The notes below the pieces were generated by a model. It did not search any database. It was not told the origin of the DNA and saw nothing but the letters and a program-made list of their open reading frames with translations. From Bugula neritina (taxonomy: Eukaryota > Animalia > Bryozoa), in NCBI GenBank assembly GCA_964035545.1, contig OZ037772.1, forward strand, positions 3,191,538 to 3,255,537: a stretch of DNA of 64,000 bases, written 5' to 3'. The position numbers and the translations under genes were made by a program. Positions 8,135 to 55,248 of the stretch are shown piece after piece; position 1 is the first letter of the stretch, and every line of letters starts with the position of its first letter.

Positions 8135-11100
8135 TGTTATATTTTGGCTCCGCCCATTTATTCAATATTGTATATCCGGTTTTTGTTAGTTGTAACGCTG
8201 CGCATACCAGCGTGGTTTTATTCAATTGGAAATATACCTCAGCAAATATAACAAGCTGGCGACGATTGATGGTCTTTATTTTTATTATTTTGAACTCAAT
8301 ATTTTTCTCTAACTATGCCCGTGGGCAACATAAGTGAATTCAAGCACGACACAGAAGATTGGTCTACTTATAAGACCAGATTTACGTCATGGCTAATAGT
8401 GAATGATATTAATGAAAATGAAAAGCGAAAAGCAGCTTTTATTGCTATGCTTGGGAGTGAAGCTTTGAGCCTATTAGTGAGCTTATCAGCCCCTACATCA
8501 ATCAACGAAATGGATTATACTGGCTTGCTGGAGCTGTTTGACAATCATTTTGGAGCTAAGAATGAGGTAGCAGAGGCGTATGTATTTGATACCAGAACGC
8601 AATCACCTACTGAGTCAGTGTCTGACTTTATTCTGGCTCTCAAAGCACTGTCTACACACTGCAATTTCGGACCCACTGAACAGTTAAAACAAAAGCTACG
8701 GAACAGGCTTGTGGCTGGTGTCAGGTCTGACACAATCAGACAAGCATTGATAAGAGAAGGCACAACTCTGACATGGGATAATGCTGTGACTTTAGCGAAG
8801 CAAATGGACGATTACCAGTCAAGTGCTATGGCTAAACAAGCACTGCCATCAGAACCTGTGAATGCAGTCTATTCGGAAAAACAACCCACCAACAGAGGTC
8901 CTCATGCTTCAAGGTCCCAGGCCTCCACCAGTCACACAGCCCCACGCCTGGGACCGCCATTACCCGCAGCTAAGTATTCTAACAGTAATTATAACACAAA
9001 ACGTTGGAGATGTGGTAGAGGTCATCATCCAGCTAGATGCAGGTTTAAAGATGCTAATTGCCACTCTTGTGGGAAAAGAGGACACATTAAACCCATGTGT
9101 AATGGGGAAAGAGTTCAAACAAATATTGCTCAACAATATCATCCTGTACATTCATATGAAAGTGATTTATCATCAGACATGGTTAATATTGGAATAGCTA
9201 GCACTCTTTTGTCAGAAAAATCTAATTTATCTAATCCATATTCTGTTACTTTGCAAATTAATGATGCTAATGTCAATATGGAAATCGACACTGGTGCTTC
9301 AGTCTCATTAATTCCCTATTCTCTGTATCAGAAACATTTTAGCAATGTAAAACTTTCACCTTCTAATGTAAAATTTTGTAGCTTCACTGGAGATGTGGTG
9401 AATTGCGAAGGTAAAATGGAAGTGAATGTCAAACATTTTGGCCAGACTAAACGGATGTGGCTTCATGTGCTTGGTGCATCAAAGTTTGCCCTGTTGGGGA
9501 GAGACTGGCTGGGAGAGTTGCAAATTAATTGGCAAGCCATAAAGAGTGTGGTAAGTTCATCGGTAAATGGCATTGAACGATTGCTGGCTGCGTACCCTGA
9601 TATTTTTAAAGGTCAAGGCTTGCTAAAAGGTTCACCAGTTAAGCTTGAGTTGGTTGATGGCGCTACCCCCAAATGCTCTAAACCTTACAGAGTGCCTATT
9701 GCACTTCAGTCTGTAGTAGATAAGGAGCTTGATAGGCTAATTAATGAAGGAATTTTGACACCTGTTGAACACAGTAGCTGGTCCACTAGCTTACTCTTTA
9801 TCCCCAAACCTGACGGCTCGGTCAGACCTTGCGGTGATTTTAAGTCGACAGTCAACCCTCTTCTTAAGGAAGTAGCACCACCTCAAATAAACATGGAAAA
9901 TATTCTGTGTGATTTAGCAGGAAACAAATATTTCTCAAACTTAGATTTTGCCCAAGCATATAATCAGATGGTCATACATGAGTCATCCAAAGAGTTGCTA
10001 ACACTGGTCACCCATAGAGGCTTGTATCAGTATAACAGACTGCCGTATGGTATCAAGACTGCTCCGTCCTTGTGGCAAAATGCCATAGAACATGTGCTTA
10101 ATGGTATAGAGGGTGTTCATATATATTATGATGACATATTGGTTGCAGGGCGAACTGTAGAGGAACATAACCATAGGCTAGAGTTGGTTTTCAAACGTAT
10201 AAAGGAACATGGTTTGAAATTAAAGCACTCAAAATGTTCTTTTCTGAAGCCAGAAGTGAAATATCTTGGTCACATAATTAATGGTGAGGGCATTAGGCCA
10301 ATTCCTGCCAAGTTAGATAGCATCCTTGAAACTGAGGCACCTAAGGATAAATCGAAAGTGCGATCTTATGTGGGTCTATTGAATTTTTACAGGCGTTACT
10401 TGCCCAACCTTGCTGCGACTGTTGCCCCTTTGAATGCTTTGCTTAAGGCCAATGCTAAATTTGTTTGGGATAAGACGGCCCAGAATGCTTTTGAAAAATC
10501 TAAAAACTTATTGAGAGAAAGTAAGCTGCTAGTTCACTTTAACCCAAACTTGCCTGTGAAACTAACGTGTGATGCCTCAAGAGTAGGCATAGCAGCAGTT
10601 CTTTCACACGTTATTGATGATGTAGAACGCCCCATACAATTTGCATCTCGAAAATTAACATCTGCGCAGATTTTGTATCCACAAATAGAGCGAGAAGGTT
10701 TGGCTGTTGTTTTTGGGTAAGAAAAATTCAGGCATTTCTTATATGGGCGGAAGTTTACTCTAGTGACGGACAATCAGGCTCTAAGTAGAATATTTGCCCC
10801 AGAGAAGGGGCTTCCGGTTATGACAGCAGAGCGTATTCAAAGGTGGGCTTTAAAGCTTTCAGGATATGATTACACCATTGAGTGGCGCAGAAGCAAAGAT
10901 AATAGGGCAGATTTTCTTTCCCGGTATCCTGATTCAGTAGCTGCTAGTGAATTGAATGAAAAACCCCATGCATTTATTTTTAAAGTTGACAATCTTGGAC
11001 TTCCTATCACTTCCTTACAGGTGGCTAAGCTCACTGCTAAAGACCCAACACTATGTAGGGTATTCAGGCTAGTGAGAGAGGGCTGGCCTCAAAAATTGTG

Positions 11101-12608
11101 TGAGGCCGACTGGGATCTGAACCCTTTCTTTGCTAGAAGAAATGAGCTATCTATCATGTCAGGAGTAGTTATGTGGGGAAATCGAGTAGTTATCCCACGT
11201 TCTCTTCAAAACCCTCTGTTAAAGGAATTGCATGATGAGCATTTAGGTATATGTAAAATGAAATCTGTAGCAAGGTCATTTATGTGGTGGCCAGGCTTGG
11301 ACAAAGATATTGAAGCAACTAGCAGGTCTTGCGATTCATGCATGTCTATGAGTAATGACCCTAAAGCAGTTAATACACACCCATGGCTACCCACAACTCG
11401 ACCATATCAGCGCATTCACATTGACTATGCTGGTCCTGTAGAAGGTCATATGTTACTAGTAGTGGTGGATTCGTATTCTAAGTGGCCTGAAGTGTGTGTT
11501 ACAAAATCTACCACCTCCCAAAATACTTTAAACATGCTTAGGCCAATCTTTGCTAGATGGGGTGTGCCTATGGAGCTGGTCAGTGACAATGGACCACAAT
11601 TTTGTAGCGAAAAGTTTGAAGCCTTTTTGGCACATTTGAGCATCAAACATAAGAAAAGTGCACCCTATCATCCAGCCACTAATGGTTTAGCAGAGCGGTT
11701 TGTACAAACAGTCAAAAGTGCTCTAAGGGCCTCTCAAGGTTTAGATTTACAGTATCGGTTAGACAGGTTTTTGTTGGCTTATCGTAATGCTCCTCACTCA
11801 ACTACTGGTGAGAGCCCTGCAACTTTAATGCTTGGTCGAACATTGAGAACAAGGCTTGATTGCTTAAAGCCTGACATAACATCAAAACTACATGATGCAG
11901 GTCCTATAGCTATACACCGTGAATTTGACATAGGCTCAGATGTTTGGGTGAGGTGTTACTTTGGAGCTGTTAAATGGAAAAAGGGGGTAATAATTGACCA
12001 GGTTGGCCCGTTGTGTTATTTCGTACAGGTAGGAGAAAAGAAATGGAAACGCCATGTAGACCAACTCAAGCACCGAGAAGCGAAAATAGCTAATGACCAA
12101 AATGAAACCACTCCTTTAGATATCAGTGTTCAGCCATTTACCGGTGTGCCATGTGATTTAATTTCTAGGAACACACCTTCTTCATTAAGCCACTTGCCAC
12201 CAGTCTCTGCACCTCAAACAGGTCCAACCTCTGAGCACATGGAGCCTCGTCCTGATAGTCTTCAAACTCCTGCAACTGTGAGTACACCTTCAGCACCTGT
12301 CACCACACCTTCAGAGCCAAGGCGTTCAAGTAGGATACGTAAGCCAAGAGTGCTGTTAGACTTATAATACTTTCAATTTTATTATTTTACAGTTACATTG
12401 TTCTTTCATTTCTTTCTGTCTTACTTTGAATTTATTACTTGTTTTGTTTCTTGAATGTTTTGTAAGTCAAGCTTTGTAAAGGGAGAATCTGTTATATTTT
12501 GGCTCCGCCCATTTATTCAATATTGTATATCCGGTTTTTGTTAGTTGTAACGCTGCGCATACCAGCGTGGTTTTATTCAATTGGAAATATACCTCAGTAA
12601 ATATAACA
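8135..12608 (+). mobile_element. Full-length Ty3/Gypsy (Mag-like) LTR retrotransposon
   Basis: 119-bp LTRs at 8135-8253 and 12490-12608 (TG..CA, one mismatch), 5-bp TSD ATTTG on both sides, PBS TGGCGACGA (tRNA-Ser type) after the 5' LTR, PPT aaagggagaa before the 3' LTR. Confidence 0.96.
8315..12367 (+). pseudogene. Single-frame gag-pol polyprotein with one premature TAA (10718-10720)
   Basis: Gag with two CCHC knuckles (first Cys mutated), protease EIDTGAS, RT YYDD, RNase H CDAS, integrase HHCC and IHIDYAGP...SDNG...AERFVQ. ORFs 8315 and 10763 share a frame: FG*EKFRHFLYGRKF. Confidence 0.93.
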
Positions 12609-13478
12609 ATTTGATCTTGTCTTCAGCTTCTGCCCAGATATGGCAATTTCAACTTGCTAAACCAAAATTGAAAAGTTCATTTCTATCATTATTGCATATG
12701 AAATGAGCATTTCGCAGTTGAACTCATCAGAAATGACATAATTAATATGAAAAAGAATGAAATACAGTTTAAATTAGATCAAATTTGTTTGCAGTTTTAC
12801 TGCATTGTCATGGCCGATGAGCATAATATCAGCATGTATACAGCTAATAGCATGATTGTTTTACTACTACTATTATAAGTTTTTACTTTCATCATAATTG
12901 ACTATTACACTTACTATAGCAATAGGCATGGTCAATGATCATAAATTGAGTGTTAGCATGGCTATCAGTAGTAAGTACAGCATAATAGATTATTATTATA
13001 AATGTATTTATACAAATAGTAACAGTAATACTAAAAGTAATATTTTTAGCTATAATTGGTATCCACAAGTTTGCACTACAATTTTAAATTACATACAACT
13101 TCAACTTAAAAGTAAGAGTGAAACGCTTAATAGTTATTACTCTAACTATGACTATTAGGATTAGTATAATATTGTGGTGGCTCGTGGAGCTACCAGCAAC
13201 ACAATACGCAAGGTTGCGTATTGACCCGGAACAATGTATTAGCCAATTAGCTAGGTTGTTTTATGAGTAATAGTAGCAGCTTCGCGCTACTAGCTCAGTT
13301 GAGGATAGTGCTGTAAATTAAATAGACGTGCGTATCATTACTGTTGTACATTAGATTTTATTATGTATTCTTGTATTAAAATATAACGATATCTACTCGA
13401 CTTAACTCGGTGAAGTTTCTCTAGTGATAAATAGACTCTCTTGGTGGCACATCAACCCTAAATCTGAAAATCAATACA

Positions 13479-14416
13479 GTGGTGGCAGCAGTGGGATATT
13501 TGTGTACAATGCTGTGGGATATGAAAAACCGATGCTGTTTCCAAGGATAGGAGATTACAGGCAGGACTGTTACAATGACATTAGATATCGAATGCACCAG
13601 CGATCTTTTAACAGGTATTTCTCTAACGCGTTTAGTGCCCAAGACCGGGAGGGTCTGGCGTCTTACCAGTGCGAATGCAATGCACAAGTAAACAATTCAC
13701 ACCGCTCATTCAGCAGACCTTTGGTGAAGGAAGTACAGGTGGCGTGGAGGAGCACTGTCTATACACATTCCCTGGCTACGCTACGCTGTAGGGAAGCACT
13801 TCAGTAAGAGTTGTACGAGCAGGTGTCGAGCTTACGCTGGAAGTGGCGGCAAACGTCTCAAGAACCTCGGCCTACTACTGAACGGCAGACGGCGTCGTGA
13901 TGGAGAGTACCCATCCTCTTTGTGGCGCTAAGGAGCAGCTGGAAAGACAGGCGCATATAGCCAGAGCAGGGCAACGACTTGCCAACTTTCGCTCTAATGA
14001 TGGACACGCCCTTCATGTCAACCCCCTCCTTGATAGGTGTTCAAGCTCAGAGGAGCCCGAGGAAAATCTCACGGCCTCAGCCTCTGCATGTAGTAATGTC
14101 CAAGGCAGAGAATATCCCCGACCCCGGTAAACCCGACCAGCCATATCAGCAGCGACACCTTCGTAACCTAACACAGAAGTCTGATCCTAAGGTATTAGCC
14201 AGCTTATTGTACTTGTAGACTGTGCTCCTGTAGTTTCCCTTATTTGTAAGTAGTGTATACCGAATGTCTGTTATATTGTTGCAGTTTCTGTGTGAATATT
14301 TTTTTTTTTGGTGGCGTTCTTATATTGTATTCTAATTGTGTTTTCTTTTTTTTGTCTGTTTGTTTTCTTGTACTCCTTTCTTATCGGAAAGGTGTACTTT
14401 CCGATGGTGGGGGGAG
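13479..14416 (+). mobile_element. Internal region of a putative non-autonomous LTR element B (no gag/pol)
   Basis: Starts with PBS TGGTGGCAGCAGTGGGAT. Contains only short interrupted ORFs (~13532-13807 and 13897-14130), then a T-rich tract, the hairpin atcggaaag/ctttccgat and the PPT ggtggggggag. Confidence 0.75.
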
Positions 14417-14524
14417 TGTAGTGAGTTTTGGTTATCTATATTATTATTCACCTGTCGTAGTATAATCACACATTGTCAATGTGTGATGTAATAACCCGCT
14501 ATGGTTAGTAGTTAGCGGTTAGTA

Positions 14525-14660
14525 GTCACGTAGGTAGTTACTAATGTCACGTAGGTAGTTTACTAATGTCACGTAGGTAGTTTACTAATGTCACGTAGGT
14601 AGTTTACTAATGTCACGTAGGTAGTTTACTAATGTCACGTAGGTAGTTTACTAATGTCAC
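14525..14660. repeat. 21/22-bp tandem array within LTR-B (6 units)
   Basis: gtcacgtaggtagt(t)tactaat x6. The solo LTR has 4 units. Confidence 0.95.
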
Positions 14661-15094
14661 ACCATCGGCAATGGAACACCGCCGGCAGCTATAACCATGG
14701 ACTGCAGTGTAATAGATGTAACGTAATGCGTACGCATGGTCATCATAACAGGCTGCCAGTACTAGTAGTTAATGCCTAGCTTGACGGCATCACCATTACT
14801 AGAGAGACCGTATGCTGTTCCGCACCAGCAACGCTATGGCCATTCACTTAGCTGGACTCACTCATCAATACATCAGTTGACTACATGTTAACATTCCTTC
14901 GTGCCGTACGGCACATGTGAAATGCGGGGACTCCCCGCGGTCCACCGGAACCCATGGACCAATCACCATCCAGCCAGCTGTGGCTGCGATGAATCATGCT
15001 TACAGTCGTCTGAGCAAGTGTGGGTATTTTCCATCATCAACAAAGTGACAGCTATGCATCAGCTTGCCCGGATGAACCTTGAAGTAATGGCCAG

Positions 15095-15146
15095 GATGAC
15101 GTGATATTAATACCAACCAATCAGAGGCGAGCTCTCGTATATATAC
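15095..15146 (+). promoter_or_regulatory. Putative LTR-B core promoter (CRE-like TGACGT, CCAAT, TATA)
   Basis: gatgacgtg ... aaccaatcag ... gtatatatac occur in canonical order, and the same motifs are at ~54956-55007. AATAAA lies near the LTR end. Confidence 0.5.
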
Positions 15147-15389
15147 AGCACCTTCAGCCGCCCACAGGCAGATTGGAACTGGCAGGCTAACTCATGTAGT
15201 TACTACGACTTATGTATATTCTTTCTCGGCTGATGTATGTTATTTTTACTCGTATGTTGTTTACTTAAATATAATTCTCGCATTCCTAATCCACTTGGTT
15301 CGGTTCCTTCTGTAACCTCACAGCATGATGCAGTAATTAGTAGTACACAATAAAAACCCACAAACTAGTAATTCCACGAATTACTACAG

Positions 15390-15407
15390 TGGTGGCAGCG
15401 GTGGGAT
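15390..15407 (+). promoter_or_regulatory. Primer-binding site complementary to tRNA-Leu 3' end
   Basis: TGGTGGCAGCGGTGGGAT. The same site or a one-mismatch variant follows LTRs at 13480, 28556, 39902 and 60086. Confidence 0.85.
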
Positions 15408-15421
15408 AGTGTACATCAAAG

Positions 15422-18400
15422 ATGGAGACTGAAAATGCTAGAATGCAACCACCCCCAGTAGAAGGTGAGCGTAGAAATGCTGTTAATCCTGTGAATCGTG
15501 AGGGAGAAGAAGCTTATAGACATTGCTTGAAAGCTCCCACTTTTACTGGGTCGGAAGATGTCGAACAATTTATACAAGAATTTAGAGAGGTAATGGAGGT
15601 TGCTCAATGGCCGCATAGAGTGGCCCTTATCCAATTGCGGAGAGCGGTGACGGAGCAAGCCAAGCCGTACGGAGTGGGAACGGACGTAGACGGGATACTG
15701 GCTGCGCTGCGGGCCCGTTTTGGCATCTCCGCAATAGACCCTAGGACCAAGCTAGAGAGATTGTGCCGCACCCCGCGGACCTCGCTACAAGAACATGCCG
15801 CGACGGTGAAGAAGCTGACGCAGATTGCATATAGCGATCTGCCAGCACAACACCAAGAGCGTTACACCTATGACGCCTTTGTCCAGTCACTAAACGACCT
15901 GGGCCTACACCATCAACTACGAGCTGAAGGGATAACCAGAATAGAAGATGCCCTGAAGGCTGGAGAAGCTTACCTGTTGGCTACCCAAATGCATCAAGCA
16001 CGACGGAACCCACCAGTAGTTGGAGTCAGCGCTGCCAGGGCTACGACAGGTCCCGAAGCCCTCCCGCTGGAAGCCGAAGTGGACCGTATGGTAGAGATGC
16101 TGGGACAACTGGTAACCATTCTGGCCGGTGCTGGCCCCGGTCAGGCCCTGCGGGTGCCCCCAACACCTGTGGGGCAGGGCTGGAGTAGCGCTGATCAGAA
16201 CCAGGGACAGAAAGGACGACCCCAATACCAGGGGGCGTTAAACTGTCACGGCCTGCGGACACTCTCCCTCCCCGCGGACACTCTCCCTCCCCGCGGGCCG
16301 CAACTGAAGGAGTATGGCGGGACACGCCGTCTTCTGTCCGTACGGACACGACGGAACACTCCACCCGAGTGGCAGGTACCACGCAGGACTAGTAGGCCCG
16401 CACAACGGCCGAGTACCTTCTCCCTGCCACTCGCCAACCGGTTCCACCGGTTACCTCGGGAAGAGGAGCCCGCCACTGAAAGGGAGCCAGAAGGCCCAGT
16501 GGAGAGCCCCAAACCCCGCCGGCATCAACCTCGCCGCCGGAAGCCCCGTAAACCACGGGTGAAACCTCCGCCGTCCTGTCAATCCAAGACAGCACATGCG
16601 GGGGGGGGGGGGGTGAAAGTACAAATACATGGAGAGAGCTATTTCCTACCCGGAAAGGTGGCCGGCAACGCTGTCATTTTCCTGCTCGACTCCGGTTGTA
16701 CTACTAACCTTCTCAGCCGTAGAGTCTTTGAGGCACTGCCCCGCCGGGACAGGGATAGAGTACGACCGTATACAGGGGAACATGGCACCCTAGCAGACGG
16801 GTCATGTATTCCTTTCTACGGTATTATCGAGCTCCCTGGGCGTGTCCGAGACCAGGCTGTACAGGAGACCTTTGTCATAGGCCAACTGGAGGAAGATGCT
16901 ATCCTCGGAATGCCCTTCTTGAAGCAACACCAATGCCGAATAGACTTCAGTAAGTCGGTGGTGCTGATGGGCGGGCGAGAACTCGCCTGTGTGGATAAGT
17001 TTGGGCGTACTCTGGTGGGTGGTGTTCAGGTAGTTTGAAACTGCACCGTGCCCGGACGCTCCAGAGCTACTATCCACTGCCGAGTGAACAGCAACCGGAT
17101 AGCCAAGCTCGGGGTAGTTGAAGGCGCGCACGAAAGGATCCAAGTCGCCAGTAGTTTAAACCGACTAACTGAGCGAGGGGAGGTCTTAGTGCAGTGAGTC
17201 AACCCTTTTACCGAGCCCATTGAGCTCCCAGCTGGGTCAATGCTGGGCCGGTTCCACTCCGTCCAGGAAAAGGACGTGGGCCCGTCGCTGGGTGACGCGA
17301 CGGAGGCACCCCCTCGACACCCTATTCAGGGACGAGGGGCAGTCCCAACACATCTCCGGGAGTTATACGAAACAGCCAATGGCGGCTGCGCGAGTAACAG
17401 AGAACGCCAAGCTATGGCTAAGTTACTACGCGACTACGGTGATGTGTTCAGCAGCGTAGAGCATGACGTGGGACTGACTGGAATTGTCAGACACGAAACA
17501 CCGCTGACTGCAGGGACAGTCCCTGTCCGGCAGCCCACACGCAGGCTGGGGCCGGAGAAAAAGAAGGAGGTTAGCCGACAAGTACGGGATCTTCTGGACC
17601 GGGGACTGATAGAGCCCGCCCATAGTGCGTGGAGCTCGCCAGTCGTACTGGTCCGGAAGAAAGACGGCAGTTGGCAGTTCTGTGTGGACTACCGCAAACT
17701 CAATAGCGTAACCATACAGGACGCCTACCCTCTACCTCGTATTGACGAGTCATTGGACGCCCTAGCCAGCAGCAAGTACTTCAGTACGTTAGACTTGCTA
17801 AGCGGCTATTGGCAGGTTCCTCTGAGTCCCGACGCCCAAGAGAAAGCGGCGTTTATCACACGGGACGGTTTGTGGAAGTGGAAGGTGCTGCCCTTTGGGT
17901 TAACCTCCGCCCCAGCCACCTTCCAGAGGCTGATGGAACAAGTCCTTAGCGGACTCCATTGGAAGACACTGCTGGTCTACCTCGATGATGTCATCGTAAT
18001 CTCTCCAGACTTCGAGACACATGTCAGTCGTCTGCAGGAGGTTTTCGAGAGACTCCGAGGTGCCGGTCTCAAGCTCAAACCTTCCAAGTGCGCTCTATTG
18101 CAGCCGGAGGTCAAGTACCTGGGGCACGTTGTCGGTCGAAACGGCGTGGCAACGGATCCCGAAAAGGTACGGGCGGTAGAAGACTGAGTCACCCCCCAAG
18201 ACTTGACCGGACTCCGGGCTTTCTTGGGGCTGGTAGGGTATTACAGGCAATACATACCAGACTTTGCGGGCATAGCCCAGCCGTTAAACCGGCTCACCGC
18301 AAAGGGAGTGACGTGGCAGTGGACCCCAGTCGAACAGGAAGCGTTCGACCGCCTCAAGGGCTGCCTACTAACGGCGCCCATCTTGGCCTACCCAGACCCC

Positions 18401-20890
18401 ACTCTGGAGTACATCCTCGACACGGACGCCAGTGACCAAAATGTTGGCGCTGTGCTGGCACAAGTGCAGGTAGGCCGAGAGGTAGTAGTAGCCTACTACA
18501 GCAAGTCTCTCTCACCCGCTGAACGAAATTACTGCACTACCCGCAAGGAGCTGCTGGCAGTAATCAAGTCAGTGAAGCACTTCAGACCATACCTATATGG
18601 CAGGAAGTTCCGGCTGCGTACGGATCATGCCTCGCTGATCTGGTTGTGCAAGAGAGCAGAGCCCTCTAGTCAGGTCGCCCGGTGGCTCGAAATCTTAGCT
18701 GAATTCCCATACCGGATCGAACATCGACCGGGCAAGAGACACAGCAATGCGGATGGGTTGAGTCGCCGACCTGACGGAGGTTGTAAACAGTGTCTCAACA
18801 TCGAGAGGAGGGATGGAGGTCCCCCGCGATGCGAGTTGGAGACGCTGGCTCATCACGGAGCACCGTTTGACTGGGACCAAGGTCAACTCAGGCAAAGAGT
18901 TGATGAGTCCCCGGAGGATGTACAAAACCTCCGCGCCAACCCTGTACTGGCCGGTAATGTTCGAGAGCTGAAGAAGCTTCAAGAAGAGCTGCCTGGAGTC
19001 GTGGCAGACATATACCGGGCCAAAAGAGAAGGGCGACGACCCAGCGAGGAACGCATACGACAGGGACGCGCCGAGTTCCGGCTATACTGTCAGCGTTGGG
19101 ACTCGCTGCGGATCGGGCAGGATGGGTTACTCACCATTTCCCTAGCTGCCAGCGGCAGACACCCGGAAAGGAAGAGGGTAGTCTGCCCCACGGCCATCCG
19201 CCGTGAGTTGATTTGGGATACTCACAAACAGGCCCACGCAGGGGTCAAGAGAGTGATATCCAAATTACGACTCCGGTGGTATTGGCCACAAATGGAGCGT
19301 GACGTCCGGCTCAGAGTCAAACAGTGTGAGATCTGCCAGGCCAGTAAGCATAGCCGCCCCCCTGGTGAAGCAGGACGGCGGAGGCTATATGCTGGTAGGC
19401 CCTGGCAAGTAGTCGCTGTAGACCTGGTCGGACCCATGCCCCTGACCCCCAGAGGCAATAATTGGATCCTAGTACTAACCGACCACTTTACTAGGTGGGC
19501 GGATGCTCTGGCTATCCCAGATGCATCAGCCCCAACAGTGGCCAGGGCACTAGACCAACATGTATTCTGTTATTTTGGACTTCCCGAACAGATACACTCT
19601 GATCAAGGCGCTCAATTCCAGTCTCAACTGATGAGCGACCTTTGCCACCTCTGGGGAGTAAATCAGAGCAGGACCACCCCCTACCACCCTCAAGGTAACG
19701 GGGTGGTGGAGCGCAACAACCGGATGCTAGGTGATGCACTCCGGAGTCCCCTCCTTGGACGAGGTCAAGAGGAATGGGATACGGTGTTGCCGCAGGTCAT
19801 GCGTGCATACCGTAGCACCCCACACACCAGTACTGGTGAGACCCCAAACCTCTTGATGCTCGGGAGAGAGACTCGTGTCCCTGACCATCTCACCTATCAC
19901 GTTCCAGAGCAAGACAACTCGGTTCACGAGTATGCCAGTGAACTAGTGGAACGGATGAAGGCCGCACACGATATACTGCGCCAACAGCAGTGGAAGGTGC
20001 GGCACGAAGATTCCGATGAACCACCTCTCTATCAAACGGGAGATAAGGTGTGGATGGTCAATTACCGTAGGCGTCGCGGACAGGCTGATAAACTGAAGCC
20101 TAAGTTCGTAGGGCCCTACGTGGTCGTCGAGGCTATGCCCAATCATACGTACAAGATCGAGCGCTCAGGACAGGTGTCTATCCAGAATGAGTCTCGCTTG
20201 AAACCGTATTGGGCTAGCCCCGACGGAGTGGGAGAAGCCCCCCGTTGTTAGAGCCCAGGAGGCAGACAACGACGCGCGGGCGACGGCGGCATGGACCTGA
20301 ATACGAAGTGGTCATACCGCGGGAAGAAAACTTGGTGAGAGAGGAGCGGCAGCTTTTGTCAACAGAAGCATGTCCGCCACCGCCAAGTCTAATTCCATCA
20401 CTTCCAGAAACCGAGCCGGTTCCGGAAGTGCAAACCCCCACGGAGGGAGGGGCTCCATCCGGAGAACAAGAAGAAGTGACCGCTAACGGTGAAGTAGAGA
20501 CGCCATTAGAGGCCCCTACTAACGAACCGGTAAGCGTGTCACCCCCCCCCTAGAAAGGGGACAGCGTACGAGGAAACCCCCACCATATTTAAAAGACTTC
20601 GTATGTGACTGCATTAGAAGCGGCGCACATGAAAGTCTAGGGGAAAACCGTACGATAAAATGTTGGAGTTGTGAGCCCCACGCAAAAATCAACTTTTGCG
20701 AGGGCGGAATAGTGGGAGGAATTAATGCGCGTAAAGCAAATAGTTCCGACCTCGTGCCTCAGAAACGATGCTCAGCCTTTTCTTATGCTGACATCGCCAA
20801 AGGCAGACGTATCTCACAACCAGCTCCAATCTTACCAAGAACGTTGAGTATGGACATTAATACCGAGTTCCCAGGTAAGCCAGTATAAGT
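15422..20890 (+). pseudogene. gag-pro-pol of family A copy 1 (defective)
   Basis: Gag, protease LLDSGCT, RT YLDD, RNase H DTDAS, integrase HHCC/DDE. In-frame stops at 17036, ~17196 and 18185, and frameshifts in the integrase tail. Confidence 0.93.
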
Positions 20891-21979
20891 CTTGTATTCC
20901 TATTCATGGAAACGGGCTCGATGCCAGTAAATTCTGAACTAATTCAGCAGATTGAATCAGAATTACTGGGAACCACGTTTCATGTGAATGACGATGAAGA
21001 CACTGTAATGGCCGACGGTCTGTTAGACCTGGAGCTAGACACTGTTCTTGGTCAGTCCACACATGATTCATCGGTTCCTCGAGTGCATTCCAAAAGCTGT
21101 GACTCTCAGGCTAGCAACGGTCAACAGTCACTAGAATTATGTTGTAAAGATCCACCGCGATCTAACAATAATTCTACTTTTGTAGACACACTCGCGCCCG
21201 TCTCTCCGGGCATGCCTTCTCTAGAGATGGCGTGGGACCCAGAGCCGGCCCCAACAACTTCTACAACCAGGCAACTGCCACCCCAGTTGGAAGCAACCTC
21301 CAACTGGATTACCCCTGCCACAGAGAGAGAGATTAGGACCCATCAAGGAGGTGAGAGTAATCGTGAATGCAACCTCTGCCAGCAGCGATTCACAACCCAC
21401 CGCAGACTGAAAATACACTTGCCGCAACACTACATCATCACTTTCCGCCCTTGCGGAGAATATAGCTACAATCGTGATTACCTACTGCGGCACCAACGTA
21501 CTATGCAGTGTTATCAAGGGCACGTCTATGAAGTAGACGAATCATCCTATCCTGCCTTTCTCAACGCCATCAAACCACTCATCACTGACTCAGCTCGGCT
21601 ATCTCGCCTGGAGCAAGGCTTCCCTTCCCCGCGACCCATCATCTCCGGAGCCGCAGATAAACCTACACAGTCTACTAACTCTCCACCTCACAGTCCTCTA
21701 CGCATACCGCATACCTTTCCTCGTGTCGTACTACAGAGGGTAGACACAAATGCGTATACACTCCCTCCTCCCCTTCCATCCTCAGAGCGGAAAAGACATA
21801 GACAGCCGACTTCCTCTCGCTCGTCCCCCTGGGCCCGCAACCTACGTGAAGTAGAAGCTAGGGCACACGACTTGGAGCAAGAAGTGTACAGACTGGCCCC
21901 ACGGGTGCAGGCTGCATCCAGTGAACTCAAATATTTACAGGAGTCTATCAAACGCATGAAGCGTGCGGCCCGCAGTTAA
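20850..21979 (+). CDS. Accessory ORF3: zinc finger plus coiled-coil protein; predicted exons 20850-20874 and 21186-21979 (272 aa); unspliced ORF 20906-21979 (357 aa)
   Basis: C-x2-C-x12-H-x3-H motif and a C-terminal heptad segment. Donor CAG|GTAAGC, branch-like CTAAC at 21162-21166, acceptor TTTTGTAG|. Homologues at 34085 and 45007. Confidence 0.8.
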
Positions 21980-23759
21980 CTTGAGTCTATCTCCAACTCC
22001 ATACTACTCTTCCCCTACCTCTCTGTGGCATTCCCTACCGTTATGGTGGCACGTACTCTACATGTAGATAGGACCTTCTCTTACTTATTACGTATTGTGC
22101 ACGTTATATATACCCGTATATTTTATCAGTTGTTGTTTTTTTTTGTATATACTTTTATACTGTTCTCTTACCCCCCCCCCAACGAAGTATACATTTTTTT
22201 TATGTGAAATTTATTTTTATCAGAAAGAGGGCTTTCTGCTGGAGGGGGCAGTGTGGTGGCTCGTGGAGCTACCAGCAACACAATACGCAAGGTTGCGTAT
22301 TGACCCGGAACAATGTATTAGCCAATTAGCTAGGTTGTTTTATGAGTAATAGTAGCAGCTTCGCGCTACTAGCTCAGTTGAAGATAGTGCTGTAAATTAA
22401 ATAGACGTGCGTATCATTACTGTTGTACATTAGATTTTATTATGTATTCTTGTATTAAAATATAACGATATCTACTCGACTTAACTCGGTGAAGTTTCTC
22501 TAGTGATAAATAGACTCTCTTGGTGGCACATCAACCCTAAATCTGAAAATCATAACAATATGGTAAAATGCAAAACTGAGTACCAGTATAAAACTGATAT
22601 TTAACCTATTTGTAGATTCTAAACTTTTAAATTAGAAAATATATTAGAAAATATAGTAATAGTAGTAGCAGCAACCTTGCGGTAACTCCTACAGTTAATC
22701 CTAGTTCTATCATCTATCAGTATTACTATGATTATCATTATGATTATGATTATTACCATCAGTATCAGTATCACCATCACCATGACTTCAAATCTAAAAC
22801 TATGAGTATCAGTATGACTGACTGTGAGAGTATCACCACCACTATGAGTGGTGGTGATAGTGAGTATCACTATCACTACAATACTTAATTAGTTACTTAT
22901 AGGTATACTCATACTGTGAGTTATACTACTATCACTATTAGTATCACTACGACTATAACTATCACTATCACTATCAGTATAATTATGACTATCAGTATCA
23001 GTATCCGTCTTCTTGGGTTAGGCAAATTTTCAACTTACGCGCTGGGATGAAAATTCAACTAATTTTATTTTCAAAGCTCACGTTTAAGGAACTACAGTGC
23101 AAGCAAAAATTATCGAATATCGATGCTTAAAAACAAAAAGAAAATTTATCCATTTCAATTCAACTAATGCCTTGGGCTTGTAGCTTACTCAATGTTGCCT
23201 AACAATTCACAACATCCGCTGCGTCTTTCTTGTTAGCTAGGGAACCAAAAATCCGAACGGCCTACATAACGTTTTTCAGACTAGGGGGCTTGTTTTTTGT
23301 GTTATGTATTATAATCTTTTCCACCGATCTTGCAATTTGTTTTTATGACCATGGGCAAGGCCAAGGTTTCTCCCGCGGATCTGCAGCAAAAATGAAGAGG
23401 ATTGTTGTGAAACAGAAGTTGCATTTGTGTAGTTTATCATTAATATTATTATTAATGATATTAATTATCGATAATATTAATTATTATTATTAATCTCTTG
23501 AATTTTATACTCATAATGATATGATTATATCTATTTATTATTATATCTATATAATTACCATAATATTAATTATAATGATAATCATAATATTAATCATGAT
23601 AATGATAGTTACCTCCAGTTACCTCCAGATTACGATCATGCTAGACCACTAGGTAGCAGAAGCGGCATGCCTCATATGTTTACGGTTGGTCAGAAAGTAA
23701 AATGCATACAATAGACCATAAATTGGTTGCAGTGTGTGTTGCAATATTGTTTATTAGTA

Positions 23760-24042: not shown

Positions 24043-24516
24043 ACCAATGATAATCATAATCATAATGATTATTATTTATATTTATAAATTATTATTAATA
24101 TTGATATTATAATTTTATGTTTATATTTTTGAGTTATACTTTAATAACAATATAACTATAATGATTGTCATATATCATTGAATTTGACATTTGATTTGTC
24201 ATTTGATCAATTTTGACATCGATAAGTTGATAATAAATATGATTAACATAATGATAATGTTGTTGTTAGTGTAATTTAAATAATAAAATCTCAATAGTAA
24301 TAGTTGTAGCATAAGTATAAGTTTAAGTTAACGTCTAGGCACGTCTTGAGTTTGTGATGTAACTAAATCAATATCAAGTTCAAGTTGTGATACCCTCATT
24401 ATCAGGGATGTAGTGGTACCCATACGGTCCCATACGCCGTATGGCCTAGAAGAAAATAGACTGTTCTAGGCCATACGCCCGTATGGGCATAATTATTTTT
24501 GAAAGATGATTAGTGC

Positions 24517-25156
24517 CACAGGATAGTTAGGGCATCCTCACTGAGAATATCATAAATTTCGCTCACAATCTAATTTAAGTTCTTGCTATGTTAATGCTCT
24601 GTGGGTGGCATGCGTGTTGCCTACTTGTGATTGTTTAGCCTGAGATTACACTATGAATAATATGCAGCTATCAACATTCCATCTTCTCATCTCTACGTGT
24701 TCATTGAAGCGCGAAGTGCTGTGCATTGGTGATTACTATAAGGAAACATAATCTCATTTTCAGTGTATAAATCACTAACTTGAAGAAAATCTATGAAGGC
24801 TATTGAAAAGATAAAAAAATTTGCCATGCATAAATTTCTCAGGTTTCCGACAGTGTTTGTTCTATTCGAATACCATGCTTTCCTGCTGAGATATTTGGCA
24901 TGGATTGAAAAATAAATTTTTTCAGGTAAAATTGGCCAAAAATGGGTAGATTTTTGTCTAACTTTGCAAAAAATACTGAAAACTTAAAAAAGCAGGTGCT
25001 TTGAGGAACAGGAAGATCTAAAACATGGTTTTTAAATTTTAATTTTAGCACAATTAAGTGAGGTTTTATTTTGCAGGACTGAATTCTTATAATATACCAA
25101 TAATGTGGCCTCAGCAAGGCTGTGACAGCTAGAAGGTTGCCCTTATCTATCATGTG
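24517..25156. mobile_element. Non-autonomous TIR element with CACAGGATAGTTA(A)GGGCA ends
   Basis: Left end cacaggatagttagggca, right end tgcccttatctatcatgtg. A homologous copy lies in opposite orientation at 60966-61721. No clear TSD. Confidence 0.75.
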
Positions 25157-27194: not shown

Positions 27195-28585
27195 GTACTA
27201 AGTCTATTTCAAGGTCACATCAGGTTTCTAAATCCAATTGCAGCTGCAAATTCCTTTTCAACTTTCAGTGTTTACAGGATAATGTGAGTTTTGGCAGCTT
27301 TCGCTGTCACTATTTTGACCTTGATAAAAATTAGGTGGAGGAAAAATGAATAGCTCCAATATATGAGATGTCTTGTAGCTTCAATATATGAGATTTTTGT
27401 GTGTCATAAATATGAAAGGTTAAATCTTACATCAGTAGACTGGATAGTTGATGCTGTCAGATTTTGAAACATAAATAAATAAGCCATGACTGTATAAAGC
27501 TTATACTATACTAAAATTTATGTTAGATTTCTTCCAGGCTACGTTACATCCAGAGCCTTTGCAGACACGCTGCCTACAGCTCAGACACTTGCAGACACTT
27601 GGCAATAGCTGCCAGTGAATTAATTTACTAGTGAAATAATATTGATAGTGTCATCCATGTGTCATGTTAGATTATTGGTATAATGAGGTTACATCAGTGA
27701 TGATTAAAATTACTAGTCAGCCTAGTTCACAATAATGCCTTTGCTGTCTATTTCTCTACATTCTTTACATTGCACAACATTGCTTGGCTATTTCTTTAAA
27801 CCTCTACATCATAGCCTACGGCATTCATAGTCTGTTGCATTAGTTATGAAGTCATAGAATATAAAAGAACCACATTTATGTGAGTCTCACACAACCTCTG
27901 ATTGGTTCTTGTGAATCTTACACAACCACTGATTGGTCTCGCTACCTGTCTAATTACAAATATTGACAGAAGAAGACTTTAACTAACTGAAACTCTATCT
28001 CTATATTGATACTCTGCTTTAGTAAAAAGTGAGTAACTGGGGTGGAGAGAGCCAGTTCTCAAGAAGCTGATTATAGAGAGGGCTGAGGGAGCTGATTTTG
28101 TGCCAGTCTTGGAGACAGAGCAGGTTTTGGCCGGGACGGCTTTGAGAGTAACGATCAATGTGACAGCGGAGTTATAAAGTCATCAACTTGAAGTGAGTGT
28201 AGATGCTTACCCACATCTGCTGATTGTAAACGAGTGTAGAGTTTTATTGTGGTGGTTCATGGAACTACCAGCAGCACAACATGTAGGGTCGCGTAATTGA
28301 CCCGGAACAATGGATAGCCAATTAGCGTAGTTGATAGTTAGCAGCAATTGTAGTTTCCCGCTGCTAACTCAGTCGAAGCTAGAGTGTGAAATAGATTAGA
28401 TGTATAACTTGTTTGGAAATAATGTATCGTGTTTTTATAATGTATAGTTGTGTATAAAATATACTCGTTCTCTCGACTTATCCTGGTGCAGTTCTATAGT
28501 AGATAAATAGACTCTCTGGATAGCACATCAACCCTAAATCTGAAAATTATAACAGTGGTGGCAGCGGTGGGATAGTGCATCCAAG

Positions 28586-29539
28586 ATGGAGACTGAAAAT
28601 GCTGGAACTCAACCACCGACAATCGAAGGTGAGCGTAGAGACAATGCTGTAGAGACAATGCCTGTTAACCATGTAGTAGAAGAGCGAAGGGTTCCGCGAG
28701 AACTAGCTGAGGACCGCTACAGGTTAAAGGCGCCCACCTTCACGGGTGAAGAGGAGGTGGAACAATTTATCCAAGAGTTTAGCGACGTAATGGACGTCGC
28801 TCAGTGGCCCCCTAGGGTGGCCTTGCTGAAGCTTAGAATGGCATTGATGGACAAAGCCAAGCCCTATGGGCTGGGCGTAGACATTGATAATATCTTTGCT
28901 TCTCTGCGGGCCCGCTTTGGCCTCTCTCCTACAGATGCCAGGGCCCGATTGCAGAGGTTGCGGCGTGATCCCCGCACCCCGCTGCGGGAGCATGCCGCCG
29001 CGGTCATGAAGCTGGCACAGATCGCGTACAGCGACTTGCCCCCAGTCAACCGCGAGAGGTACACCCTCGACGCTTTCATAGCATCTGTCGACGATCTGGG
29101 TCTCCACCACCAGTTTCTAGCTAGGGGAGTCACCACCGTTGAAGATGCTCTGACTGAGGGGGAAGCTTACCTCCTAGCTAATCAAATGCATAAAAGTCGC
29201 GGAAGCTCCCGCCAAGTGGAGATAGACCGCGCAGACACGGCCGCGGGACAAGGGGAGGAAACCCCCGCCGCGGCTGCCGTGTCCCAGTTGGCGACGGCAT
29301 CAAAAGTCACTCAACTGACGGACATGCTAGCCAAGCTGATAGCAACACTGACACCACAAAACCCAGTGAGTACCGCCCCTGGGCCCATGCGGCCATCGGC
29401 GCCGCCACAGGGAGAAACAGTCAGTTTTTGCTGGGAGTGCGGAAATCAAGGACATTTCCGCCGATATTGTCCCTTCCTAAATCAGGGGTTAAACTACTGC
29501 GGCCCGCAGATGTTCCCACCTTCCGCGGGCCGACGATGA
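28586..29539 (+). CDS. Gag (317 aa) with CCHC knuckle
   Basis: The ATG follows the PBS. Contains CWECGNQGHFRRYC and is homologous to family A gag. Confidence 0.88.
   Translation: METENAGTQPPTIEGERRDNAVETMPVNHVVEERRVPRELAEDRYRLKAPTFTGEEEVEQFIQEFSDVMDVAQWPPRVALLKLRMALMDKAKPYGLGVDIDNIFASLRARFGLSPTDARARLQRLRRDPRTPLREHAAAVMKLAQIAYSDLPPVNRERYTLDAFIASVDDLGLHHQFLARGVTTVEDALTEGEAYLLANQMHKSRGSSRQVEIDRADTAAGQGEETPAAAAVSQLATASKVTQLTDMLAKLIATLTPQNPVSTAPGPMRPSAPPQGETVSFCWECGNQGHFRRYCPFLNQGLNYCGPQMFPPSAGRR
29488..29532 (+). promoter_or_regulatory. Putative -1 ribosomal frameshift signal (G TTA AAC plus stem-loop)
   Basis: GTTAAAC at 29488-29494, then cggcccgc (29500-29507) pairing with gcgggccg (29525-29532). 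The pro frame is -1 relative to gag. The same motif occurs at 16237 and 60722. Confidence 0.7.
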
Positions 29540-32500
29540 AACCTCTAGGGAAGAAGAAACGCAGGTCACCCAGACGGGTACCGCGTACTGGCAACCAACA
29601 GTGGCAACAGCCACGACGGACCAGCAAGGGGCTTCGCCCCGCGGCTGCCTTTTCTATGCCCCTTCACAACAGACTCACAGGGCTACAAGTCCAAGAGTCT
29701 GGATGGGAGCACACAAAGGTAGCTGAGAATCTAGCCTCGGCACCCCCGAGACCTACCTATCACCGCCCCAAGAGACCTCCTTCGCGACCCAAAGCGAGGG
29801 AGGTACTCCCTGCGAGAGTAAGGCCCGAAGGGAGAGTTCAGGTGCAGCCCCATGGGAACAGCTATTTCTTGCCCGGTGAACTGGAAGGCAAAGCTGTTAC
29901 TTTTCTCATTGATTCGGGCTGTACCACAAACCTCTTAAGCCGCCAAATCTTCGACACCCTCAGCGCTAGGGTCAGGGGCGAGATGGAAGCATACGAAGGG
30001 GAATACGGCACCCTAGCTGACGGGTCGTGCCTTCCCTTCTATGGTATAATTGATCTGACGGGACGAGTCCGCGATCAAACGATCCAAGAGACGTTCATCG
30101 TCAGTCAGCTCAAGGAGGATGCTATCCTCGGGATGCCGTTCCTTAAACGGCACAGATGTCACATAGATTTTAGCAGATCTGCAATGATGATGTCCGGGCG
30201 GGAACTCGCCTGCGTCGACAAGTTCGGCCGCCCTTTAGTGGGAGGTGTGCAAGTGGTACGCAACCGTACCATACCAGGCCGCTCCCGGGCTACCATTCAC
30301 TGCAGGGTGAATAGTAGCCGGATCTCTGGACTCGGGGTGGTTGAAGGCGCGCACGAAAAGATCCGACTTGCCAGCAGTCTGAATCAGCTGACTGAGCAAG
30401 GGGAGATCTTAGTGCAGTGCGTCAACCCCTTTACCGAGCCTATCAAGCTCCCGGCGGGGTCAATGCTGGGCCGTTTTCACTCTGTTCAGGAGGGAGACGT
30501 AGGCCCGTCGCTGGGTGATGCGACAGAGGCACTCCCTCGACACCCTATTCAGGGATGAGGGGCAGTCCCAACACATCTCCGGGAGTTATATGAGACAGCC
30601 AGTGGCGGCTGCGCGAGTAACCGGGAACGCCAAGCTATGGCTAAGTTACTACGCGACTACGGTGATGTGTTCAGCAGCGGGGAGCATGACGTGGGACTGA
30701 CTGGAATTGTCAGACACGAAATACCGCTGACTGCAGGGACAGTCCCTGTCCGGCAGCCCTAGCGCAGGCTGGGGCCGGAGAAAGAGAAGGAGGTTAGCCG
30801 ACAAGTACGGGATCTTCTGGACCGGGGACTGATAGAGCCCGCCCATAGTGCGTGGAGCTCGCCAGTCGTACTGGTCCGGAAGAAAGACGGCAGTTGGCGG
30901 TTCTGTGTGGACTACCGCAAACTCAATAGCGTAACCATACAGGACGCCTACCCTCTACCTCGTATTGACGAGTCATTGGACGCCCTAGCCGGCAGCAAGT
31001 ACTTCAGTACGTTAGACTTGCTAAGCGGCTATTGGCAGGTTCCTCTGAGTCCCGACGCCCAAGAGAAAGCGGCGTTTATCACACGGGACGGTTTGTGGAA
31101 GTGGAAGGTGCTGCCCTTCGGGGGAACCTCCGCCCCATCCACCTTCCAGAGGCTGATGGAACAAGTCCTTAGCGGACTATATTGGAAGACACTGCTGGTC
31201 TACCTCGATGATGTCATCGTAATCTCTCCAGACTTCGAGACACATGTCAGTCGTCCGCAGGAGGTTTTCGAGAGACTCCGAGGTGCCGGTCTTAAGCTCA
31301 AACCTTCCAAGTGCGCTCTATTGCAGCCGGAGGTCAAGTACCTGGGGCACGTTGTCGGTCGAAACGGCGTGGCAACGGATCCCGAAAAGGTACGGGCAGT
31401 AGAAGACTGGGTCACCCCCCAAGACTTGACCAGACTCCGGGCTTTCTTGGGGCTGGTAGGGTATTACAGGCAATACATACCAGACTTTGCGGGCATAGCC
31501 CAGCAGTTAACCCGGCTCACCGCAAAGGGAGTGACGTGGCAGTGGACTCCAGTCGAACAAGAAGCGTTTGACCGCCTCAAGGGCTGCCTACTAACGGCGC
31601 CCATCTTGGCCTACCCAGACCCCACTCTGGAGTACAACCTTGACACGGACGCCAGTGACCAGAATGTTGGCGCTGTGCTGTCACAAGTGCAGGAAGGCTG
31701 AGAGGTAGTAGTAGCCTACTACAGCAAGTCTCTCTCACCCGCTGAACGAAATTACTGCACTACCCGCAAGGAGCTGCTGGCAGTAATCAAGTCAGTGAAG
31801 CACTTCAGACCATACCTATACGGCAGGAAGTTCCGGCTGCGTACGGATCATGCCTCGCTGATCTGGTTGTGCAGGAGAGCAGAGCCCTCTAGTCAGGTCG
31901 CCCGGTGGCTCGAAATCCTAGCTGAATTCTCGTACCGGATCGAACACCGACCGGGCAAGAGACACAGCAATGCGGATGGGTTGAGTCGCCAACCTGACGG
32001 AGGTTGCAAACAGTGTCTCAACATCGAGAGGAGGGATGGAGGTCCCCCACGATGCGAGTTGGAGACGCTGGCTCATCACGGAGCACCGTTTGATTGGGAT
32101 CAAGGTCAACTCAGGCAAAGAGTTGATGAGTCCCCGGAGGATGTACAAAACCTCCGCGCCAACCCTGTACTGGCCGGTAATGTTCGAGAGCTGAAGAAGC
32201 TCCAAGAAGAGCTGCCTGGAGTCGTGACAGACATATACCGGGCCAAAAGGGAAGGGCGACGACCCAGCGAGGAACGCATACGACAGGGATGCGCCGAGTT
32301 CCGGCTATACTGTCAGCGTTGGGACTCGCTGCGGATCGGGCAGGATGGGTTGCTAACCATCTCTCTAGCTGCCAGCGGCAGACACCCGGAAAGGAAGAGG
32401 GTAGTCTGCCCCACAGCCATCCGCCGTGAGTTGATTTGGGATACTCACAAGCAGGCCCACGCAGGGGTCAACCGAGTGATGTCCAAATTACGACTTCGGT

Positions 32501-54338: not shown

Positions 54339-55248
54339 TGTAGTGAGTTTTGGTTATCTATAAATTATTATTCACCTGTCGTAGTATAATCACACATTGT
54401 CAATGTGTGATGTAATTAACCCGCTATGGTTAGTAGTTAGCGGTTACTAGTCACGTAGGTAGTTACTAATGTCATGTAGGTAGTTACTAATGTCACGTAG
54501 GTAGTTTACTAATGTCACGTAGGTAGTTTACTAATGTCACGCCATCGGCAATGGAACACCACCGGCAGCTATAACCATGGACTGCAGTGTAATGGATGTA
54601 ACGTAATGCGTACGCATAGTCATCATAACAGGCTGCCAGTACTAGTAGTTAATGCCTAGCTTGACGGCATCACCATTACTAGAGAGACCGTATGCTATGG
54701 CCATTCACTTAGCTGGACTCACTCATCAATACATCAGTTGACTACATGTTAACATTCCTTCGTGCCGTACGGCACATGTGAAATGCGGGGATTCCCCGCG
54801 GTCCACCGGAACCCATGGACCAATCATCATCCAGCCAGCTGTGGCTGCGATGAATCATGCTTACAGTCGTCTGAGCAAGTGTGGGTATTTTCCATCATCA
54901 ACAAAGTGACAGCTATGCATCAGCTTGCCCGGATGAACCTAGATGTAATGGCCAGGATGACGTGATATTAATGCCAACCAATCAGAGGCGAGCTCTCGTA
55001 TATATACAGCACCTTCAGCCGCCCACAGGCAGATTGGAACTGGCAGGCTAACTCATGTAGTTACTACGACTTTTGTATATTCTTTCTCGGCTGATGTATG
55101 TTATTTTTACTCGTATGTTGTTTACTTAAATATAATTCTCGCATTCTTAATCCACTTGTTCGGTTCCTTCTGTAACCTCACAGCATGATGCAGTAATTAG
55201 TAATACACAATAAAAACCCACAAATTAGTAATTCCACGAATTACTACA
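54339..55248 (+). mobile_element. Solo LTR-B (910 bp)
   Basis: TGTAGT..ACTACA, TSD GTAT on both sides, near-identical to 14417-15388. Confidence 0.95.

What the first reader, a model, noticed from the sequence alone, without database searches (positions are those of the whole stretch)
13173..22557. Three-LTR heterodimer: an autonomous-type element and a partner element integrated as one unit
Seen: the order is LTR-A, PBS, 0.94-kb cargo, PPT, LTR-B, PBS, gag-pol-ORF3, PPT, LTR-A. There is one outer TSD (ATAT), no TSD around LTR-B, and only one LTR-B, so ordinary nested insertion does not explain it. Both junctions fall exactly at LTR/PBS boundaries. The 5' LTR-A ends ...caaTACA (like LTR-B ...acTACA) instead of ...cataACA. 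Inference: this is the expected product if A and B RNAs were co-packaged and their plus-strand strong-stop DNAs annealed reciprocally through the shared tRNA-Leu PBS. It would be a fossil of B replicating inside A particles, and it places gag-pol under a foreign LTR promoter.
Basis: partly seen in the sequence, partly recalled or inferred. Interest (0 to 1): 0.8.

Follow-up and report, generated by a model that had tools for sequence, protein, structure and literature searches.

The report
Two retrotransposons fused at primer site
A small mobile element with no intact gene sits inside a larger retrotransposon with unrelated end repeats, joined at the short primer site they share, likely because their DNA copies annealed there during reverse transcription; three-repeat fusions are known, but a foreign middle repeat is unusual.

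Summary
The layout is as described: LTR-A, PBS, 0.94-kb cargo, PPT, LTR-B (972 bp), PBS, Gypsy gag-pol-ORF3, PPT, LTR-A, with ATAT on both outer sides. B is a separate element. A solo LTR-B with its own GTAT duplication lies at 54339-55248, and contigs join the LTR-B end to the cargo start in 4 of 7 runs laid. LTR-A and LTR-B do not align; around both junctions the two elements share only 23 nt (ACA, G, PBS, A). The A half is not autonomous now: three in-frame stops break gag-pol. The cargo holds a faint protease remnant. The best mechanism is annealing of A and B reverse-transcription intermediates through the PBS, then one integration (0.45). A published rival gives the same layout without co-packaging: integrase-independent, PBS-directed insertion of B cDNA into a resident A (0.30). 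So 'B replicated in A particles' is plausible, not shown. No independent contig bridging the composite's own A/B junctions was seen; I put artefact at about 0.1. Three-LTR complexes are known in plants and yeast; an unalignable middle LTR joined at the PBS is a new variant. One instance.

The parts
13169..13172 (+). left target-site duplication ATAT
13173..13478 (+). 5' LTR-A (306 bp); last 5 nt differ from the 3' LTR at two adjacent bases, one B-like and one matching neither parent
13480..13497 (+). PBS 1 (A variant at base 11), left A-to-B junction zone
13498..14416 (+). internal region of element B (cargo): no intact long ORF; faint aspartic-protease remnant 13533-13634 and post-protease linker remnant 13709-13795; 3' hairpin covering the PPT (14371-14418)
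14406..14416 (+). polypurine tract of B
   Evidence: sequence
14417..15388 (+). LTR-B (972 bp, TGT..ACA) with a 22-bp tandem array 14525-14660, TATA-like site 15138 and AATAAA 15349
15390..15407 (+). PBS 2 (G variant), right B-to-A junction zone
15422..20251 (+). gag-protease-RT-RNase H-integrase in one frame, broken by stops at 17036, 17195, 18185
20879..21979 (+). ORF3 (366 codons stop to stop), no Pfam match
22240..22251 (+). polypurine tract of A
   Evidence: sequence
22252..22557 (+). 3' LTR-A (306 bp)
22558..22561 (+). right target-site duplication ATAT
54339..55248 (+). solo LTR-B with its own GTAT duplication; shows B integrates independently

Best explanation
This is one unit of a small defective LTR element (B) sitting inside a Gypsy element (A) and joined at the primer-binding site they share, likely formed when A and B reverse-transcription intermediates annealed to each other through that site and then likely integrated once by A's ends. 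Shown: the layout, B's separate identity, junctions confined to 23 shared nt, near-identical outer LTRs. Inferred: A and B RNAs shared a particle built by an intact helper; each plus-strand strong-stop DNA annealed to the other molecule's minus-strand end, giving a nicked circular dimer; strand displacement finished across the short LTR-A (306 bp) but not across the long LTR-B (972 bp), leaving A-cargo-B-gag-pol-A; integrase used the two A ends and host repair sealed the nicks. The two odd bases at the end of the 5' LTR-A would be B's minus-strand overrun into U5 plus one untemplated base.
For: Cargo follows LTR-B in contigs of X2 and X3 (table 5c) and X4 and X6 (35 letters before 13475, 22 of the 30 shown matching window 15355-15376): 4 of 7 runs laid, 3 samples, 2 studies. 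Cargo runs on into LTR-B in X2 and X3 (records 13 and 21). Solo LTR-B has a 4-bp duplication ending in TAT like the A-family sites. LTR-A and LTR-B share no alignable sequence (best E 1.5), so R-to-R switching is excluded. Shared sequence at the joins is 23 nt. 6 of 7 A-type LTR ends in the window end TAACA; only the 5' LTR here ends TACA. The B-type base at -4 is present at both joins, which a single clean crossover with a one-LTR circle would not give (inference). A and B share the PBS and a pre-PPT hairpin motif (81% over 32 nt to copy C). Plus-strand transfer works by PBS pairing (PMC6088434, passages); Tf1 RT adds untemplated 3' bases (PMC11042837 section 8). Copy C is a mosaic (gag 67%, pol 92% to A), consistent with recombination between families here.
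Against: One instance only. The model needs two intermolecular plus-strand transfers and an unfinished displacement; none of the passages read describes this, and I recall plus-strand transfer being mostly intramolecular in HIV-1 (not checked in a call). The junction signature is a single diagnostic base plus a single orphan base. The two PBS variants cannot be assigned to parents, since copy D also carries the A variant. Rival 1 has direct experimental precedent and predicts the same layout. The protease remnant suggests B descends from its own Gypsy ancestor, so other helpers could have copied it.
Confidence: 0.45

Rival explanations
1. B cDNA, made by any helper, was inserted into an already integrated A copy without integrase: its single-stranded PBS end annealed to A's PBS and its internal ACA-G-PBS recombined with the end of the 5' LTR-A, dropping the left LTR-B. 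The ATAT duplication is A's original one.
For: Tf1 cDNA inserts at PBS homology by Rad52 annealing and forms tandems with one LTR upstream of a resident Tf2; Tf1-Tf2 hybrid tandems occur in wild isolates (PMC11042837). Predicts no new TSD, one LTR-B and joins at the PBS, all seen. A-family targets are plentiful: 4 related copies in 64 kb.
Against: Tf1 and Tf2 share long homology; here only 23 nt. The orphan base at -5 has no source in a finished B cDNA, where that position is continuous LTR-B (inference). The outer LTRs differ at 1 of 301 other sites, leaving little time for a second event (95% range 0.008-1.9%).
Confidence: 0.3
2. A's minus strand switched at the PBS onto a read-through RNA from a tandem B array (PBS-cargo-PPT-LTR-B-PBS), copied one B unit, and finished a normal plus-strand transfer to A. 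Still needs co-packaging but no sealed nicks.
For: Tandem arrays are common among non-autonomous LTR elements (97 tandem copies in 38 sugar-beet families, PMC13570524 passages). Explains the B-type base at both joins.
Against: No tandem B array was seen; an LTR-B-to-cargo joint in contigs does not distinguish single from tandem copies.
Confidence: 0.08
3. Assembly or amplification chimera joined through the shared 23 nt.
For: The joins sit on microhomology. The closest run (X1, 0.64 of words) differs from this cargo at 9 of 825 bases, so no run is shown to carry this copy.
Against: It needs two switches that leave and return to the same locus. The left join has two bases found in neither normal A nor, together, in B. 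The window has no N and resolves 5 copies at 92-97% identity and a 37-copy array, which suggests long reads (inference).
Confidence: 0.1
4. B inserted by integrase right after the 5' LTR-A (duplicating GTGG), and its left LTR was later deleted through ACAGTGG microhomology.
For: The right join is formally compatible with a GTGG duplication (sequence). Nested insertions are frequent in this window.
Against: Needs a hit on one exact base and an exact deletion. All target 4-mers seen start A, T or G then T-A-(T/G) and are AT-rich, unlike GTGG.
Confidence: 0.05

Closest known systems
Template-switch three-LTR complexes (Sabot and Schulman 2007, PMC1950507; whole text read)
   Same: Three LTRs, two internal regions, one TSD pair, near-identical outer LTRs, co-packaged RNAs proposed.
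   Different: Their cases are single-family (Angela, Squiq, Opie) and the model pairs R regions. Here the middle LTR cannot be aligned to the outer ones and the joins are at the PBS.
Integrase-independent Tf1/Tf2 tandems (Li et al. 2022, PMC11042837; abstract, passages, section 8)
   Same: Incoming unit lies directly upstream of the resident PBS, one intervening LTR, no new TSD.
   Different: Tf1 and Tf2 are near-identical in RT, IN and parts of the LTR; A and B share 23 nt. Yeast, not animal.
Tandem LTR retrotransposons in plants and Cassandra 3-LTR copies (PMC11899658, passages; PMC4079214, passages)
   Same: LTR-internal-LTR-internal-LTR with TSD, each inner LTR between PPT and PBS.
   Different: Repeats of one family; the pipeline described searches for similar LTRs or similar internal regions.
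Sugar-beet TRIM chimeras (PMC13570524, passages)
   Same: Two TRIM-08 elements carry additional LTRs donated by TRIM-01 or TRIM-05; the authors argue non-autonomous elements use any helper. This is the nearest precedent found.
   Different: Both partners are short non-autonomous elements; junction positions were not in the passages read and the supplements were not opened.
Autonomous/non-autonomous partnerships with LTR swapping (soybean SNRE, rice Dasheng; seen only as citations, details recalled)
   Same: Chimeras read as evidence of shared particles.
   Different: As recalled, those partners have related LTRs and yield two-LTR elements.

Membership tests
Ty3/Gypsy LTR retrotransposon (A half) | protease-RT-RNase H-integrase order | tested here: met
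   Pfam RVT_1, RT_RNaseH, rve, Integrase_H2C2; protease below cut-off at E 4e-4
Ty3/Gypsy LTR retrotransposon (A half) | TG..CA LTRs, PBS, PPT, short TSD | tested here: met
Autonomous element (A half) | unbroken gag-pol | tested here: not met
   stops at 17036, 17195, 18185
Non-autonomous LTR element (B) | internal region with PBS and PPT between two LTRs of its own | tested here: met
   LTR-B-to-cargo and cargo-to-LTR-B joins in other runs, on separate contigs; no single contig spans a whole B element
Non-autonomous LTR element (B) | integrates on its own with a TSD | tested here: met
   solo LTR-B with GTAT on both sides
TRIM | whole element under 1 kb, LTRs 100-250 bp (PMC6934838) | tested here: not met
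   LTR-B alone is 972 bp; a two-LTR B would be about 2.9 kb
Helenus/Ajax | tRNA- or 5S-derived sequence in the LTR (PMC10886601) | tested here: not met
   no Rfam match to E 1 in 13100-15500; no tRNA in the window
Template-switch three-LTR complex (Sabot and Schulman) | inner LTR, two cores, one TSD pair, similar outer LTRs | tested here: met
Template-switch three-LTR complex (Sabot and Schulman) | partners similar enough to pair at R | tested here: not met
   LTR-A versus LTR-B best E 1.5
Integrase-independent PBS-directed tandem | donor unit upstream of resident PBS, one LTR, no new TSD | tested here: met
Integrase-independent PBS-directed tandem | resident element predates the donor; Rad52-dependent | not testable with these tools
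   needs population alleles or genetics; no whole genome is held
tRNA-Leu-primed elements | PBS complementary to host tRNA-Leu 3' end | tested here: inconclusive
   one viral-contig match lies at the 3' end of a weak tRNA-clan hit, E 0.028; the Leu label is recalled

The most novel reading that the evidence does not exclude
The shared tRNA primer site works as a universal adaptor: any two co-packaged LTR elements that use the same primer, however unrelated their LTRs, can fuse at plus-strand transfer and integrate as one unit. That would give a general route for LTR replacement between families and make such composites a fossil record of which helper packaged which parasite, with the short-LTR partner always outside.
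Probability: 0.25. Interest if true: 0.7.

Novelty: new variant of a known kind. Interest (0 to 1): 0.47.

Why it matters
How non-autonomous LTR elements find a helper when they share no LTR sequence with it is open (PMC13570524 and PMC10886601 say so in the passages read). A composite joined at the PBS between elements with unalignable LTRs shows that 23 nt can be enough to fuse two families, and shows a way for gag-pol to gain a new LTR. If in-particle origin is confirmed it would be genomic evidence for intermolecular plus-strand transfer. As a single, broken copy with two competing known-type mechanisms its weight is moderate; its value is the clear genome-wide test it suggests.

Tried and rejected
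Whole-genome census: no genome is held. Junction support in runs: on 13425-13560, none of the 8 X1 pieces shown (of 141 laid) has 31 letters on both sides of the LTR-A/cargo join, and X8 laid nothing; contigs drop rare variants, so this is no evidence either way. The right join was not examined at that resolution. X2 and X3 show no depth on 13288-13384 of LTR-A while holding B, and X4 and X6 none on 13425-13464: a hint that B persists without this A subfamily, but uncovered parts prove nothing. X1 depth is far higher on LTR-A than on cargo; not a copy number. One X1 contig covers 12940-13172 and goes on for 7 letters that do not fit LTR-A: possibly the empty site, but the letters were not shown and the flank may be a repeat. 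X5 held cargo pieces but the B-to-cargo joint was not among the rows shown. DNA pattern scans found no B loci: metagenome contigs 0 and 0, viral contigs 0. The cargo frame read through its three stops had no homolog among 221 candidates of 125-399 aa, no Pfam match for its first ORF and no similarity to ORF3. blastx of the cargo against 120 related polyproteins was not significant (best E 0.15; 1 of 20 controls better); only the profile test showed the remnant. Helenus/Ajax rejected. Paper searches gave nothing useful. Earlier findings: none. Considered and rejected: ordinary nesting (no TSD at LTR-B, one LTR); recombination between two neighbouring insertions (outer LTRs 300 of 301 alike); a clean single crossover with a one-LTR circle (B-type base at both joins).
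Full report
Observation. The stretch 13173-22557 reads LTR-A (306 bp), G, PBS, cargo, PPT, LTR-B (14417-15388, 972 bp), G, PBS, gag-pol, ORF3, PPT, LTR-A, with ATAT on both outer sides. The outer LTRs differ at positions 131, 302 and 303 only. The PBS pattern has 5 matches in the window and none in 100 shuffles; the other three follow the 5' LTRs of related copies C (28248-35756), D (39596-46706) and E (from 53645, cut by the window end). The A half is a Ty3/Gypsy element by domain order. Its RT has relatives at 85-89% identity among unnamed metagenome proteins and about 50% among named animal proteins (120 of 7955 hits listed); the host is likely an invertebrate animal, which I did not determine.

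The A half is not autonomous as it stands. The gag-pol frame has stops at 17036, 17195 and 18185; the first is shared with copy D. With LTRs only 1 in 301 apart, at least part of this damage likely predates integration, so an intact helper elsewhere is implied (inference). ORF3 has no Pfam match.

B is a separate element. A solo LTR-B lies at 54339-55248 with GTAT on both sides and 15 mismatches in 907 aligned bases. Of 13 runs listed I laid 7. In X2 and X3 a contig runs from the LTR-B end (15376) to the cargo start (13475). In X4 and X6 a 520-nt contig has 35 letters before 13475, and 22 of the 30 shown match 15355-15376. X3 and X4 are one sample, so this is 3 samples in 2 studies. In X1 the cargo contig starts with 6 letters that do not fit LTR-A. 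Cargo also runs on into LTR-B in X2 and X3. No single contig spans a whole B element. The cargo has no intact long ORF. A profile of the protease-to-RT region from 78 relatives finds two collinear pieces at 13533-13634 and 13709-13795 summing to 5.6 bits; 0 of 300 shuffles reach that (best -6.4). With a full-length profile from 45 relatives the pair scores -2.2 against a best null of -2.4. In single-frame shuffles 2 of 1000 reached the best single score, and plain blastx was not significant. The region was chosen after a tblastx hint, so I read this as moderate evidence that B is an old deletion derivative of a related Gypsy element. B is too large for a TRIM (PMC6934838, passages) and lacks the small-RNA insert of Helenus or Ajax (PMC10886601, passages).

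The junctions. LTR-A and LTR-B do not align (best E 1.5). Around the PBS the elements share 23 nt: the last 3 LTR bases and 20 bases after, with one variable site. The right join lies within that stretch. The left join lies just outside it: 6 of 7 A-type LTR ends in the window end TAACA, while this 5' LTR has a B-type T at -4 and a base at -5 that matches neither parent, with no change in length. Two adjacent chance changes among the last 6 bases at a background of 1 in 301 would have odds near 1 in 20,000 (hand arithmetic), so they likely arose with the join. Because the B-type base is present at both joins, the donor carried slightly more than one circular unit (inference). A and B also share a hairpin motif before the PPT; in B it extends over the PPT (-27.8 kcal/mol, z -6.1, 0 of 200 shuffles), in A it is not significant (z -0.3).

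One integration of the A ends. ATAT alone is weak: it faces 3 of 5 independent insertions examined, though it is only 1.7% of background 4-mers. The near-identity of the outer LTRs, against about 95% to copy D and about 75% to copy C, shows they come from one reverse transcription.

Mechanism. Plus-strand transfer works by pairing of complementary PBS ends (PMC6088434, passages). If A and B intermediates share a particle, each can pair with the other, giving a nicked circular dimer. Displacement across both LTRs would give two hybrids; displacement across the short LTR-A alone gives exactly A-cargo-B-gag-pol-A with two A ends for integrase. The overrun base and orphan base fit a run-off 3' end; Tf1 RT adds untemplated bases (PMC11042837 section 8). 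All of these steps are inferred; I give 0.45. Against it are the short homology, the orphan base and the young age of the A copy. A switch onto read-through RNA of a tandem B (0.08), exact nesting plus deletion (0.05) and an artefact (0.10) remain. No independent contig was seen to bridge the composite's own A/B joins, which leaves the artefact question open.

Known systems. Three-LTR complexes with one TSD were described and ascribed to co-packaged RNAs by Sabot and Schulman (PMC1950507, whole text), but within one family and through R. Single-family tandems are common in plants (PMC11899658, passages; PMC4079214, passages). Sugar-beet TRIM-08 chimeras carry extra LTRs from other families (PMC13570524, passages); its supplements, which I did not open, may hold a closer precedent. 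Cross-packaging between families is reviewed in PMC6894440 (passages). Searches brought up no paper that, in what I read, describes an unalignable middle LTR joined at the PBS; the library lacks most subscription journals, so this is weak. Earlier findings of this scan gave nothing.

Consequences. LTR-B, with a TATA-like site and an AATAAA, now stands before gag-pol, but this gag-pol is broken. An RNA from the 5' LTR-A that read through LTR-B would carry A's R at both ends and could copy the whole composite in trans (inference, untested).

Verdict. A real-looking, well-defined composite; B's independence is shown, fusion at the shared PBS is shown at the sequence level, co-packaging is likely but unproven. 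New variant of a known kind; interest 0.47.

Noticed in passing
window 28248-35756: Copy C is a mosaic relative to A: LTRs about 75%, gag start 67%, but protease-to-integrase 92% identical, and a different ORF3 region; TTAT duplication. Suggests module exchange between families.
   Followed up: partly
window 39596-46706: Copy D has identical LTRs (0 of 305 differ) yet mismatched flanks (ATAG and ATAT), a deletion of about 350 bp in gag and the same stop as A at the position matching 17036.
   Followed up: partly
window 53727-59859: A 6.1-kb insertion with CAC..GTG inverted ends splits the 5' LTR of copy E; it contains the solo LTR-B and a minus-strand Gypsy-like fragment. Looks like a DNA transposon (recalled resemblance).
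   Followed up: no
window 13514-13521: A second half-copy of the PBS 3' end follows the cargo leader; contigs in X1, X2, X4 and X6 share the leader to about 13512 and then go on with other sequence, pointing to a sibling element with the same leader.
   Followed up: no
window 14371-14418: Strong hairpin that pairs the B PPT with upstream sequence (z -6.1); could affect plus-strand priming.
   Followed up: partly
window 8135-12609: A different LTR element with 120-bp LTRs (99%) and an RNase H-integrase ORF lies 560 bp upstream; other PBS.
   Followed up: no
window 24514-25156 and 60966-61724: Two inverted copies (75-83%) of a repeat, one interrupting gag of copy E.
   Followed up: no
window 36273-37055: 21-bp tandem array of 37 copies.
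   Followed up: no
window 13466-13500, runs X4 and X6: Several unrelated LTR ends and internal starts meet at this same PBS in the contigs, so many families appear to share the primer site.
   Followed up: no
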